Part shown: in pieces, positions 5,959-59,037 of the stretch
Position numbering within the stretch: the first letter of the stretch is position 1
How the letters are laid out: every line of letters begins with the position of its first letter
Assembly: GCA_964016885.1 (NCBI GenBank)
Contig: OZ024741.1
Location: 331,142,001-331,206,000, forward strand
Reading direction: 5' to 3'
DNA from: Eledone cirrhosa
Taxonomy: Eukaryota
DNA length: 64,000 nt
Notes under the pieces: model-generated
The model's database searches: none
The model's input: the letters and a program-made list of their open reading frames with translations, nothing else
What the model was told of the DNA's origin: nothing
Position numbers and translations under genes: made by a program

Positions 5959-6481
5959 ATATTGTTATACTTTGGGAGGGTCATGTTGCCAATAAGAAAC
6001 ACACGCACCAGTTGCTTTCACTTCAATTTATTATAATAAATTTATAAATTTAGGAATTTATAAATTTCCGGTTGATTGGTTGGTTCCACAACCAGATGGT
6101 TGTTTATATATTGTCAGGGCTCTTTCGTCACACATTCTGTGACCTCTTCAGTGATTGGGGATTCTTTTCTTTGTTTTTGTGCCTCTCCTTTGTTCTGTCC
6201 TACGCCATCTTGTTTCACACACAGAAACAAGATGGCGTAGGACAGAACAAAGGAGAGGCACAGAAACAAAGAAAGGAATCCCCAGTCACTGAAGAGGTCA
6301 CAGAGTGTGTGACGAAAGGACTATGACTATATATAAACAACCATCTGGTTGTGGAACCAACCAATCAACCGGAAATTTATAAATTCCTAAATTTATAAAT
6401 TTATTATAATAAATTGAAGTGAAAGCAACTGGTGCGTGTGTTTCTTATTGGCAACATGACCCTCCCAAAGTATAACAATAT
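5959..6481. mobile_element. ~520-bp hairpin element (arms 5959-6216 / 6224-6481, 7-nt loop) with a hammerhead in each arm
   Basis: Near-perfect reverse complement with loop acacaca; (TA)n on both sides. Confidence 0.8.
6284..6328 (+). ncRNA. Minimal type I hammerhead ribozyme
   Basis: agtca-CTGAAGA-g-gtcaca-gagtg-tgtgac-GAAA-ggac-TA-tgact. The mirror copy at 6112-6156 (-) has a mutated cleavage site (GAAAgagcCC). Confidence 0.75.
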
Positions 6482-6624
6482 CGGTTTCAACACACGTTTT
6501 CAGATAAAGAATCTTGCTAAACAAATTCAGAAACGAAATATATATATATATATATATATATATATATATATATATATATATATATATATATATATAAACA
6601 AAATTAGAAATTCGTTTTTCGCTC

Positions 6625-6925
6625 AAACATAACTGATCTGGCTGGATCCTAGACCTGCTAACCACTAAAATGAGGCAAAATGGGAAGAGTTTACACAATG
6701 AAAGCTATACTCATTTTCACAAGAGAAGACATCTCCCACCCACCCCAAAGTGGGTGAGAGATCTCGGCGTCGGACGGGGAGAGTTGACAGGTTTGGGATC
6801 CCCAAGTGAGACCAGCCAAGCTCATGGATGTTATCAAACCATCTTGCTCGGGGTCTATCCATTGGTTTTGCCCGTAAAATCTGTCCAGCGATTCTTTCCT
6901 AACCACATGCCCAGAGAAGTGTAGT
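6625..6925 (-). mobile_element. RTE LINE 3' fragment
   Basis: RPRARWFDNIHELGWSHLG peptide; similar to 8625-8780. Confidence 0.75.
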
Positions 6926-7178
6926 TTTAAGAAAAAAAATCCTCTCTAAAATGAATAAGGATGAAATCCTTAATGTTTTTCTCAAGAAACATATAGAATC
7001 CACTGTACCCGAATGTTGTCAAAAATGTGGTCCCACGAAAATAAATATCTAGTTATTATTTGACAAGCAATGACAAGTTCTAGTCATATAAAAGTAATTG
7101 AGATATATATTATTAATTTAAGTTTGAATAGAAATGCATACATACAATCAATTCATTATTGCTAGGAAACTTATAAAT

Positions 7179-8130
7179 ACTAGCAGCAGGACCCGGCGTT
7201 GCACGGGGTAGGAAACGTGAAATATGCAAAGATTGAGGAATGTAGCTGTGTACTTTTTGAATTCCCTTATTCTCAGGGAATGATTGTTCATCTACTAGAA
7301 ATGTAGAACACCAACAGGCCCGAATCGTGAAACATCTGCATGCATGTGCAAAATCTGAAGAAAATCAGCTGGATACTATTTAAGCGTACTAAATCTTAGA
7401 GTTTGATTTTTCTTCCATTGGAGAAAATCGGTTAGGTACTTTTCGAGTTTTATAGATTCGCACCCAGTCATCCAGACAGACATCATCAGTTATGTCTATT
7501 GCACCCGCATGCATACTGTACAGAGTAAAGCCTGCAATGCAAGATATGTCATGTAACCACACAGCATGTTGGGCCTTCCCCACAGGAGACCATAGCCTCT
7601 TCGTAAATCTTCCCAATCTGATATAGGCTGAACTGTTATATCGGATGCCGAACGCTTCGGGGTTACTATTGGGATCACCATCAACAATTTCAAGGGATGT
7701 ACGTTTAAGGAGGGATAATATAGTCTATAAAGAGAGGTAACTCTTTCAAAATATTAAAGAGTTGTCTCTCTTGAACATTGTAGACAAAATTGCCGAACTA
7801 AATGAAAAAAAGGCTTAAAGTTTTAGTGAAAAAAACCCGCCTTTAACAACAGAAAATTAAAAATAAAAGCTGCAGTTAATATCTTTAGACCGCAAGGAAT
7901 ATATAAATGCAAGTTTGAAGTCAATCGGAGCAGAAATGTGGATTTGTATAGACTTTGCCAAAATTAGGACACACACACACACACACACACACACACACAC
8001 ACACACACACACACACACACACACACACACACACACACACACACACACACACACACACACACACACACACACACACACACACACACACACACACACACAA
8101 CTTCAGTGTTATATATATTTATAGATAGAT
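7179..8130 (+). mobile_element. Helentron-associated (HINE/DINE-1-like) non-autonomous element
   Basis: 5' actagcagcaggacccggcgttgcacgggg hairpin terminus, internal (CA)n at 7969-8098, 3' ttatatatatttatagat. Family assignment is from recalled structure. Confidence 0.6.
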
Positions 8131-8489
8131 AATACACAAAAATCTACGAATAAAAAAAAAAGAATTGCTAATTTTACAGTTTGATTGTGGTGAAAGACTT
8201 TCCGGTCTTGTACAACGTTATTTTTTTATTAATTGTATTACTTATTCACTGAATTGGTGTGTAAAGTGGCTGAATATTCCACTAATGGTACCGCAACTCC
8301 TGGATGAGTCGTAGGAGCGGCGTATTGACATACGGCATTTCCAGGGCACTTTTAAAACCTGGTGGAGTCCATCTTCTTTTCAGGTCTGACTATAGCAGAT
8401 TCCTTGGCAGATTCCAGAATGGTAGAGAATGAGAGAAACGAAGTGAGAAAGAGATATAAAGGAAGAATCGATCCCAGTACTAGGCTGGT

Positions 8490-56340: not shown

Positions 56341-57170
56341 CATAATTTGATGTAAGGAATGTAGAGAATAATAATAATAACATTATTAATAATAATAATG
56401 TCCATTACCCATAGGCAGATCTCACACAATGCAGCCTCGACAGAAGAATACTGCTCGACTATGGCAGACAATTGATATACCCAGGACACCATAGTGAAAT
56501 ACCAACATATGGAACATTACATTTATGTAACATTCTTTCCTTATTTTAATTTATATTCCTTTTGAAGTTCCGATGAGCTGCTCTATCTTTACCTATGTTA
56601 ATTATTTTCAACTGAACCAGATCAATAATGATATATAATCATTTGATCCAGAAATATTATATGGAGTAGCGAAACAATTGTAAATGGACATTATTATTAT
56701 TAATATATAAGGGCAGTGAATTGGCAGAATCGGTAGAGGGTCGGACGCCATGCTTTGACGCATACAGTTACGGCCCTTGCCATTCTGAGTTCAAATCCCG
56801 CCGAGGTTAACTTTGCCTTTCATCCTTACGGGGTCGATAAAATAAAGTACCAGTAATGTACTGGGTAATTGCTGGCCTTGTGCCAGGGTCGGACGCCATG
56901 CTTTGACGTATAGAGTTACGGCCCTTGCCATTCTGAGTTCAAATCCCGCCGAGGTTAACTTTGCCTTTCATCCTTACGGGGTCGATAAAATAAAGTACCA
57001 GTAATACACTGGGTAATTGCTGGCCTTGTGCCTAAAGTAGAAACAATTATTATTAATATTCTCTACGTTCCTTACATCAAACTAAAATATGTTGACAATC
57101 TTTTAATAATGTCTTCCTTGTGAAATTTGTGGTCTTGTTTTGCTTAACTAATAAATATATATATATATAT

Positions 57171-57381
57171 AAAGGTAGAACACTGGAGGGTAATATCTGT
57201 AGTAGCAGAGCATTCAGTCCGTGGGACGAGTTTGATAGAAGTAGTAACACAACAGTTAGTTCACCATACTGAGAACAAATGTTTCACCTTGTGGATCTTC
57301 AGCTCGGACTCAAGCTGAAGATCTGCAACGTGAAACATTTGTTCTCGGTATGGTGAAATAACTGTTGTGTTACTACTTCTA
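57171..57381. mobile_element. Family F hairpin element with hammerheads at 57268-57308 (-) and 57309-57349 (+)
   Basis: Homologous to 26041-26283 but with a different inversion breakpoint. Confidence 0.75.
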
Positions 57382-57609
57382 TATATATTATTATTATTAA
57401 TCTCCCCTGGTCGAGATAACATTTTGGTCATTTTAACTGCTGCTATTTCTAGTGGCAGTACATTGACCTTTCCGCCCCTGCCTTCTATCTTTACACATGG
57501 CACTAGACAGAATTGTTTCTTCATCATACACTCTCATCTCGGGAACAGTTTTGTATGGTGCCAGTTCGTGATTTGAACTCGGGAATTTTATATTCTCCGA
57601 TCGAAAAGA

Positions 57610-57694
57610 ACTCTCTGACGAAAGTCTTTCTTTTCAATGGATTTGTGCATGGATTATCCATTTATTTTGAGACCTGAAACCGTACAGTAAGGGT
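57610..57694 (+). ncRNA. Type I hammerhead with extended stem II
   Basis: actct-CTGACGA-aagtctt...gagacct-GAAA-ccgtacag-TA-agggt. Confidence 0.65.
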
Positions 57695-58566
57695 AATTAC
57701 AGCAGGTACAGTGAACTTTTTAAAATTTATTTTAAAACTTTTTCTTATTTGCTAAACCTTGATTATATATATATATATATATATATATATATATATATAT
57801 ATATATATATATATATATTTATATATATATATATACATTAGTTAAGCAAAACAAGACCACAAATTTCACAAGGAGGACATTATTAAAAGATTGTCAACAT
57901 AATTTTAGTTTAATGTAAGGAATGTAGAGAATAATAATAATAATAATATTAATAATGTCCGTTTACAATTGTTTCGCTACTCCATATAATGTTTCTTGAT
58001 CAAATGATTATAGATCATTATTGATCTGGTTCAGTTGAAACTTAGGTACAATTAGAGCAGCTCATCGGAACTTCAAAAGGAATATAAATTAAAATAAAGA
58101 AAGAATGTTACATGAATGTAATGTTCCATATATTGGTATTTCACTATGGTGTCCTGGGTATATCTATTGTCTGCCATAGTCGAGCAATATTCTTCTGTCG
58201 AGGCTGCATTGTGTGAGATTCTTTAAGATTGGTTACTCTTGAACTGTATATATATATATATATATATATATATATATATCATATACACACCCTTGCAAGC
58301 AGGGAAAAGTGGACGTAAAATGATGATGATGATCATCATCATCCTCATCATTGTTTAATGTCCATTTTCCATGCTAGCATGTGTTAGACGAGCTGTCCCA
58401 TTTGAGGCAAGTTGGGTCAGGTGACCATGTCTTGCTTATAGAGAACTGTTTCTGGCTAGGTTTCTACAGCTGGATGCCCTTCCTAACGCCAACCACATTT
58501 ACAGTGTGGGCTGGGTGCTTTTTGTTGCGACACCTGAACGACCACCTTACATATATATATATATAT

Positions 58567-59037
58567 CCAGGGAGTATAACTTGGAGTTACTGTAGGTTCA
58601 CCTGGGTGAGCATTCGATGTTTAGGTTCACTTCAGTGTCAAGGTGTAGAGCTAAACAGAGTGTATTATAGTGAAATAAAATAACAAGCACGATTGGTTAC
58701 TCCTTCATTACGTTTATTGGTTGGTGACGCGTGTTTCGCCACTGATCAGCTCAAGGTTCGATCTGTATCAATCCAACCCGACTCTGTAATCTGCGGCTCG
58801 TCAGACCCCTTGTAATGGTAATGGAAAAATGAATTCATTTTTCCATTACTATTACAATGGAAAAATGAATTCATTTTTCCATTACCATTACAAGGGGTCT
58901 GACGAGCCGCAGATTACAGAGTCGGGTTGGATTGATACAGATCGAACCTTGAGCTGATCAGTGGCGAAACACGCATCACCAACCAATAAACGTAATGAAG
59001 GAGTAACCAATCGTGCTTGTTATTTTATTTCACTATA
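58567..59037. mobile_element. Hairpin element (arms ~58665-58850 / ~58853-59037) with hammerheads on both strands
   Basis: Near-perfect inverted repeat between (TA)n runs; gagcattc box at 58608. Confidence 0.8.
58723..58807 (-). ncRNA. Type I hammerhead ribozyme with GUC site (mirror copy 58896-58980, +)
   Basis: ggt-CTGACGA-gccgc...gtggc-GAAA-cacgcg-TC-acc. Confidence 0.85.

What the first reader, a model, noticed from the sequence alone, without database searches (positions are those of the whole stretch)
5959..59037. Long hairpin architecture places a hammerhead on each strand (rod-like ambisense RNA)
Seen: 5959-6481, 26041-26215, 26846-27179, 57235-57381 and 58665-59037 are near-perfect inverted repeats with loops of about 0-17 nt and a hammerhead in each arm. 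A transcript from either strand would carry one ribozyme and its antisense, and could fold into a rod of about 70-260 bp. Established: Penelope-like insertions often carry an inverted 5' pLTR copy. Inference: these are minimal insertions made by fold-back or template-switch priming. The rod fold would compete with the ribozyme fold and could feed Dicer or ADAR. The resemblance to viroid-like ambisense RNAs may be only architectural.
Basis: partly seen in the sequence, partly recalled or inferred. Interest (0 to 1): 0.8.

Follow-up and report, generated by a model that had tools for sequence, protein, structure and literature searches.

The report
Twin-primed Penelope retroelement hairpins
These hairpins are short head-to-head double copies of the 3' ends of Penelope-type retrotransposons, and their near-strict pattern of one tail per pair likely means that each was written by two reverse transcriptases priming on the two strands of one DNA cut, rather than being viroid-like RNAs.

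Summary
All five hairpins are real. A hammerhead on both strands passes my descriptor in 2 of 5, on one strand in 2, on neither in 1. They are 5'-truncated, head-to-head copies of the 3' ends (pLTRs) of four families of GIY-YIG Penelope-like elements, inserted in (TA)n. An estimated ~46,000 hammerhead-bearing hairpins exist genome-wide (17 in 1.1 Mb). This architecture is in print; how it forms is called open. New here: each family has two fixed outer ends, and 91 of 95 unbiased pairs carry one of each. Inner breakpoints are independent, 12 tailed arms do not overlap their partner, and arms share rare alleles. A young 311-nt retrozyme elsewhere forms head-to-head concatemers with the same rule (10 of 10). 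Best reading: two priming events at the two known internal start sites, mostly on one RNA, joined 5'-to-5'; not fold-back. The viroid likeness is architectural: one ribozyme per strand, always preceded by its antisense. Expression is untested.

The parts
5959..6216 (-). Family B, short-ended (S) arm; hammerhead core present but stem III and cleavage site changed
6216..6481 (+). Family B, tailed (T) arm; type I hammerhead 6284-6328; start codon of the element's ORF at 6456
   Evidence: peptide matches the start of the ORF in L141
6482..6536 (+). Family B tail, 55 nt, followed by (TA)n
26037..26123 (-). Family A, S arm; hammerhead 26069-26111
26123..26219 (+). Family A, T arm; hammerhead 26145-26187
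26220..26283 (+). Family A tail, 64 nt
26758..26845 (-). Family C tail, about 88 nt
26846..27003 (-). Family C, T arm; hammerhead 26886-26956 with palindromic stem III
27008..27179 (+). Family C, S arm; hammerhead 27069-27139
57175..57234 (-). Family A tail (second copy)
57235..57310 (-). Family A, T arm; hammerhead core with weakened stem I
57303..57381 (+). Family A, S arm, overlapping the T arm by about 8 nt; core with weakened stem I
58561..58665 (-). Family D tail, 105 nt
58666..58834 (-). Family D, T arm; hammerhead 58723-58807 with a long stem II insert
58835..58868 (.). 34-nt junction insert copied from the element's own upstream sequence; it makes the nested palindrome at the apex
58869..59037 (+). 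Family D, S arm; hammerhead with a stem III mismatch
18050..18471 (.). Family E hairpin of the same build (T arm 18050-18292 on -, S arm 18306-18471 on +); only the 3' half of a hammerhead motif seen; no ORF reached

Best explanation
Each hairpin is a head-to-head pair of 5'-truncated copies of a Penelope-like element's 3' end lying in (TA)n, one copy ending at a fixed short end and the other at a fixed tailed end, and was likely made in one insertion event by two reverse transcriptases primed from the two strands of the cut. Shown: the arms are PLE 3' ends; two fixed outer ends per family; one of each per pair; independent inner breakpoints; shared alleles between arms; microhomology or templated inserts at the apex. 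Inferred: the element's protein (predicted in print to be a dimer) cuts both strands; one target 3' end primes at the upstream start site (S) and the other at the downstream site (T) of the same RNA; the T-primed enzyme trails, and either stops before S (tail-only arm) or displaces the S-primed cDNA and recopies the same stretch; both stop early, and the two cDNA ends are joined by microhomology-type repair. The hammerhead on each strand is a by-product, because the motif lies 30-200 nt upstream of S. A read-through transcript of either strand meets the antisense arm first, so the rod would be expected to zip up and silence the ribozyme.
For: Long copies of all four families run upstream into the C-terminal endonuclease of a PLE ORF, family B also into the RT. 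Pairs: 133 of 139 classifiable same-family pairs are S+T (142 found, 3 with an intermediate end); leaving out loci fetched with tail-bearing queries, 91 of 95 (P about 1e-22 against 0.5, the ceiling for independent choice). Among those 91 the S arm is longer in 54, the T arm in 19, equal within 5 nt in 18 (P 5e-5); 12 T arms are tail-only. Non-CpG subfamily sites differ in 57 of 758 comparisons within pairs against 8590 of 22182 between loci; rare alleles are shared 35 of 356 times within against 41 of 12090 between. Junction overlap of 3 nt or more in 31 of 81 insert-free junctions against 4.9% simulated; 16 of 21 inserts of 8-60 nt are templated. (TA)3 lies outside both ends in 110 of 142 pairs (random 16-mers 8.6%). 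A 311-nt retrozyme forms head-to-head concatemers with 1-16 units per arm and one short plus one long end in 10 of 10 resolved loci. In vitro, a PLE protein cuts and extends both strands and starts at two internal RNA sites that bracket the tail (PMC11167929, main text).
Against: All evidence is from genomic end products; no intermediate was seen. PMC11167929 reports no difference in start site between the two strands, which taken alone would allow SS and TT pairs; 6 of 139 are such. 15 of 85 pairs with 4 or more informative sites differ at 2 or more, and the window's own 5959 hairpin differs at 4 of 9, so some pairs used two templates or were later converted. Allele sharing could also come from conversion between arms after insertion. 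Many arms had no head-to-head partner within 200 nt (about 140 single arms) and were not explained. Junction overlaps are read from BLAST ends and are inflated by mismatch tolerance. Target-site duplications cannot be read in (TA)n. Strand displacement by this RT is assumed, not shown.
Confidence: 0.75

Rival explanations
1. Self-priming or fold-back: one RNA or cDNA folds on itself, the second arm is copied from the first, and the endonuclease trims the two ends differently (first reader; proposed for an antisense template in PMC3846280).
For: Arms share alleles. 18 of 91 pairs have arms equal within 5 nt. Breakpoints cluster near short palindromes in families A and C. Apex microhomology is also expected of fold-back.
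Against: 12 tail-only T arms share no sequence with the S arm, while in 19 other pairs the T arm is the longer; fold-back needs two different trimming rules to give both. Both outer ends sit at two fixed sites, like the in vitro start sites. Concatemers have independent unit numbers per arm and keep the rule.
Confidence: 0.12
2. Two priming events as in the best explanation, but on two separate RNA molecules held by one dimer.
For: Pairs discordant at linked sites, e.g. window 5959 (4 of 9) and L193 (3 of 9); two chimeric hairpins join two families, L088 and L275.
Against: It does not by itself explain why one arm is nearly always S and the other T, nor the lead of the S arm; rare alleles are mostly shared when subfamilies could differ; the chimeras can be later insertions.
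Confidence: 0.09
3. The hairpins are transcribed as functional or self-replicating ambisense rod RNAs (viroid-like), or are kept as sources of double-stranded RNA.
For: Rods are very stable (-106 to -450 kcal/mol); about 24,500 hairpins genome-wide may carry a hammerhead on both strands (9 in 1.1 Mb); hammerhead cores vary less than flanks.
Against: One hammerhead per strand, so no unit can be cut out; no same-strand pair in the window. Only 67 of 126 pairs span the motif in both arms and 46 keep both cores; arms as short as 26 nt exist. Every locus has its own apex. Core conservation is explained by the parent elements.
Confidence: 0.03
4. Fold-back artefacts of library preparation or assembly.
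Against: Arms differ (9/254, 5/83, 1/153, 5/70, 1/165), ends follow a family rule, and strand-switch joints of families A and B recur in raw Illumina reads of 2-3 individuals from another study.
Confidence: 0.01

Closest known systems
Inverted 5'-truncated pLTR structures of EN+ Penelope-like elements (PMC3846280 and PMC8557442, passages read)
   Same: Head-to-head inverted copy, tail on one end only, hammerhead in the pLTR, ORF start inside the pLTR and tail, (TA)n targets, C-terminal GIY-YIG ORF.
   Different: Here both arms are often cut to under 300 nt with no ORF; tails are 55-105 nt against 30-40 bp in print; the one-tail rule is near-strict and is counted over about 140 loci in five families.
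Anolis Poseidon PAc in vitro (PMC11167929, main text read)
   Same: Two internal start sites bracketing the tail, both strands cut and extended, AT-rich target, predicted dimer, hammerhead not needed for insertion.
   Different: That text does not link these facts to inverted insertions (its one use of 'inverted' is a primer block) and reports no strand bias of start sites; the genomic pairs imply the two sites are used as a pair.
LINE-1 twin priming
   Same: Both target strands prime on one RNA; products joined by microhomology; result is an inversion.
   Different: In LINE-1 the second site is variable and the arms do not duplicate each other; here it is fixed and the arms usually overlap, giving a hairpin.
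Animal non-LTR retrozymes (PMC7229834 passages; bioRxiv 10.64898/2026.07.22.740005 part 1 of 5 and passages)
   Same: Type I hammerheads, kinship with PLE pLTRs; the 311-nt family in this genome fits the class.
   Different: The window's hairpins are not tandem; head-to-head concatemers with two fixed ends are not in the passages seen.
Viroids and ambisense viroid-like RNAs with a ribozyme in each polarity (ASBVd passage in PMC6155905; the rest recalled)
   Same: Rod fold; a hammerhead readable on each strand.
   Different: Here the two ribozymes are one motif duplicated in chromosomal DNA and are each other's exact antisense partners; no way to excise a monomer.

Membership tests
EN+ Penelope-like element (C-terminal GIY-YIG) | ORF with RT followed by a C-terminal GIY-YIG endonuclease, upstream of the pLTR | tested here: met
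   In long copies, not in the window: family B RT plus endonuclease (L141 7816-9468; Pfam RVT_1 E 8e-4, under the curated cut-off); families A, C, D endonuclease end only. Pfam gave no GIY-YIG hit; that motif was read by eye from recall.
EN+ Penelope-like element (C-terminal GIY-YIG) | pLTR with a type I (minimal) hammerhead | tested here: met
   for families A-D; cleavage itself not tested
EN+ Penelope-like element (C-terminal GIY-YIG) | Optional tail at one end; ORF start inside pLTR and tail | tested here: met
   ORF start shown for family B only; two end classes also in raw reads
EN+ Penelope-like element (C-terminal GIY-YIG) | Inverted 5'-truncated copy at the 5' end; AT-rich or (TA)n target | tested here: met
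EN+ Penelope-like element (C-terminal GIY-YIG) | Target-site duplication | tested here: inconclusive
   flanks are simple repeats; none readable in the 32 pairs printed
PLE clade (Neptune, Nematis, Poseidon, Hydra) | Placement in an RT tree; type of Zn-finger linker | not tested
   No tree built. B shows a CX4CX2C linker as described for Neptune; A, C, D share a different cysteine linker.
Non-LTR retrozyme | Tandem 150-450 nt units, each with a hammerhead on the same strand | tested here: not met
   No same-strand pair 120-500 nt apart in the window. Met by the separate 311-nt family.
Viroid-like ambisense RNA | Each polarity can be cut to a unit-length RNA | tested here: not met
   one hammerhead per strand in each hairpin
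Viroid-like ambisense RNA | Circular RNA of both polarities that replicates as RNA | not testable with these tools
   no RNA holder listed

The most novel reading that the evidence does not exclude
Penelope-like elements insert by obligatory paired priming: one protein dimer uses both strands of a (TA)n cut to start at two fixed sites on a single RNA and copies with strand displacement. This one step makes the tail, the inverted pLTR and these hairpins, and on a circular template it writes a still-active 311-nt hammerhead retrozyme into the genome as back-to-back rolling-circle concatemers, direct genomic evidence that PLE machinery mobilises animal retrozyme circles.
Probability: 0.55. Interest if true: 0.72.

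Novelty: new member of a known kind. Interest (0 to 1): 0.5.

Why it matters
The elements and their inverted build are known. What forms the inverted structure and the one-sided tail is called undefined in PMC8557442 and left open in PMC3846280 and PMC11167929. The counts here favour paired priming over the self-priming model in print and give a sharp in vitro test. They also tie a very young retrozyme to the same machinery. In practice, tens of thousands of such hairpins will mimic ambisense viroid-like RNAs or microRNA precursors in screens of this kind of genome (Rfam miRNA models hit them below threshold), and they are a large possible source of double-stranded RNA, which is untested.

Tried and rejected
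Rfam found no hammerhead at gathering score or at E<=5: its models do not fit these minimal motifs; the miRNA hits are shape-only. I first took the 5959 hairpin's discordant arms as proof of two templates in general; the family counts showed this is a minority. Pfam gave no GIY-YIG hit. No ORF was reached for family E. A short family B query returned nothing because common words are skipped. No RNA holder listed. The window's own junctions were not spanned in the reads shown. No earlier findings of the scan were returned. A motif match at 57615-57689 passes the descriptor outside any hairpin and was not followed. An earlier count gave the wrong contig for L157; it is G000:C9:15000001-15010000.
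Full report
Setting. The window is G000:C2:331142001-331206000 in a 3.0-Gb assembly, dense in microsatellites and retroelement fragments. I take it for an octopus-like mollusc from recall of its repeats; no call names it.

Observation. All five inverted repeats are present with 70-258 nt arms, 93-99% complementary, and 7-18 nt between arms. Rfam found no hammerhead. A type I descriptor found 8 cores in the window against at most 1 in 20 Markov resamples. 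Both arms pass at 26037 and 26841, one arm at 5959 and 58666, neither at 57235, where the cores remain but stem I has decayed. So 'a hammerhead in each arm' is true by descent in all five and intact in two.

What they are. The five hairpins belong to four families: A (26037 and 57235), B (5959), C (26841), D (58666). First-look candidates in the genome were 3722, 484, 26 and 2395, of which at most 40 were scored per search; these are lower bounds. Long copies run upstream into a Penelope-like ORF: RT plus C-terminal endonuclease in B (Pfam RVT_1 weak), the endonuclease end in A, C and D. The GIY-YIG assignment is by eye from recalled motifs. In B the last 26 nt of the arm and the tail encode the first residues of the ORF, as described for other PLEs (PMC3846280, passages). 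Long copies are themselves inverted pairs with arms up to 2 kb, so the window's hairpins are the short end of a range. In 110 stretches of 10 kb that I picked at round coordinates across the chromosomes (1.1 Mb), there were 123 fold-back hairpins, 17 with a hammerhead and 9 with one on each strand, and 101 hammerhead cores. That scales to about 46,000 (27,000-74,000) and 24,500 (11,000-47,000) genome-wide. Not all 123 are PLE-derived. 25 of 27 hammerheads in these hairpins point outward from the apex.

The rule. Every family has two fixed 3' ends: a short end S and a tailed end T, 55-105 nt further on. Both end classes show as loose ends followed by TA in raw reads of three individuals. Of 142 same-family head-to-head pairs in five families (E is a sixth window hairpin at 18128), 133 are S+T, 4 TT, 2 SS, and 3 have an intermediate end. 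Dropping the loci fetched with tail-bearing queries (A, B) leaves 98, of which 91 of 95 classifiable are S+T. Among those 91, the S arm reaches further 5' in 54, the T arm in 19, and 18 are equal within 5 nt; 12 T arms hold only tail sequence and do not overlap their partner. (TA)3 flanks both ends in 110 of 142. Arms of one pair are far more alike at non-CpG subfamily sites than arms of different loci (57 of 758 against 8590 of 22182) and share rare alleles (35 of 356 against 41 of 12090). 15 of 85 testable pairs still differ at two or more such sites, the 5959 hairpin at 4 of 9. Apices show overlaps of 3 nt or more in 31 of 81 insert-free cases (4.9% simulated; BLAST ends inflate this), and 16 of 21 inserts of 8-60 nt are copied from the element. 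About 140 arms had no partner within 200 nt; I did not resolve them.

Mechanism. In vitro, an Anolis PLE protein cuts and extends both strands of AT-rich DNA, starts at two internal RNA sites that bracket the tail, is predicted to be a dimer, and does not need its hammerhead (PMC11167929, parts 1-2 of 4). Both outer ends of a hairpin are element 3' ends, so both are junctions where priming would occur. One S and one T per event, a leading S arm, tail-only T arms and shared alleles fit two enzymes on one RNA, with the trailing one displacing the cDNA of the leading one. This step is inferred. The self-priming model in print (PMC3846280) needs separate trimming rules for tail-only arms and for T-longer pairs. 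The likeness to LINE-1 twin priming is from recall.

An independent check came from outside the window. A 311-nt tandem family with one hammerhead per unit (L157, L296) has units identical across many loci (105 candidates, 39 scored, 150 of 419 matches listed). 12 of the 17 loci visible in those rows are head-to-head arrays, with for example 4/8, 8/16, 8/2 and 3/8 units. I read the ends of 10 of them: 9 had both ends resolved, and all 9, plus L157, had one short and one long end about 35 nt apart in (TA)n. This is the same rule on a circular or concatemeric template; whether the template is a circle is untested.

The RNA question. Rod folds are predicted at -106 to -450 kcal/mol against -6 to -28 for the isolated motifs. 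On either strand a read-through transcript makes the antisense arm first, so the ribozyme would be masked. Each strand has one ribozyme, so no monomer can be excised. Only 67 of 126 pairs in families A-D span the motif in both arms, and 46 keep both cores. The double hammerhead is therefore what truncation leaves, not a selected design. Cores vary less than flanks (0.6-3.7% against 3.4-8.6%; not corrected for CpG), which the parent elements explain. Expression, editing and small RNA could not be tested.

Artefact. Arms differ at 1-9 sites. Strand-switch joints of families B and A recur in raw RAD reads of two and three individuals of a second study (83 and 109 reads; 50, 70 and 139 reads, from only 1-2 start places each) and in short-read contigs. 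The window's own junctions were not spanned.

Literature. The inverted copy, one-sided tail and TA targets are described (PMC8557442 passages; PMC3846280 passages), and the first of these calls the cause undefined. Searches for a paired-priming model or inverted retrozyme arrays returned none. I also saw passages of PMC7229834 and PMC6155905, and part 1 of 5 plus passages of bioRxiv 10.64898/2026.07.22.740005. I read no supplements; those of PMC11167929 and of the preprint may bear on the claim, and older subscription papers on Penelope were not in the library, so an earlier two-strand model may exist.

Verdict. These are known-type PLE fragments, not viroid-like RNAs (identity about 0.97). 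The paired-priming mechanism is my best reading (0.75). Interest 0.5, resting on the mechanism and the retrozyme link, not on the ambisense likeness.

Noticed in passing
L157 5970-8036 (G000:C9), L296 3400-4760, and loci listed: Very young 311-nt retrozyme-like family, units identical across loci, mostly as head-to-head concatemers with one short and one long end in (TA)n.
   Followed up: partly
tails of families A, C, D, E (window 26220-26283, 26758-26845, 58561-58665, 18050-18127): All begin with a shared short stem whose inner part varies but pairs, right after the S end; a candidate signal for positioning the RT. Not tested for covariation.
   Followed up: partly
window 5783-5945, 24997-25140, 1-650: Three more hairpins with a tail on one side. 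The first abuts the 5959 hairpin through a shared TA run; the last contains an internal microsatellite and a single hammerhead at 273-243 (-) in its loop.
   Followed up: partly
L088 and L275: Hairpins whose one arm joins two families (C with B, D with B); in L088 the switch lies at a 4-nt match to the hammerhead core.
   Followed up: partly
window 55583-55691: Head-to-head inverted 3' end of a SINE-like repeat, without hammerhead or tail.
   Followed up: no
window 27313-27363: A lone family A tail fragment on the - strand next to the family C hairpin.
   Followed up: no
window 57615-57689: A hammerhead-like match outside any hairpin; may be chance.
   Followed up: no
L141 4525-6210: PLE ORF with a long asparagine-rich stretch, like the inserts described in rotifer Penelope elements.
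   Followed up: no
window 29059-50484: Dense cluster of broken non-LTR retrotransposon ORFs; no PLE ORF was found in the window itself.
   Followed up: no
window 22306-22542 and 37048-37196: Older, more diverged fold-back repeats without a hammerhead.
   Followed up: no
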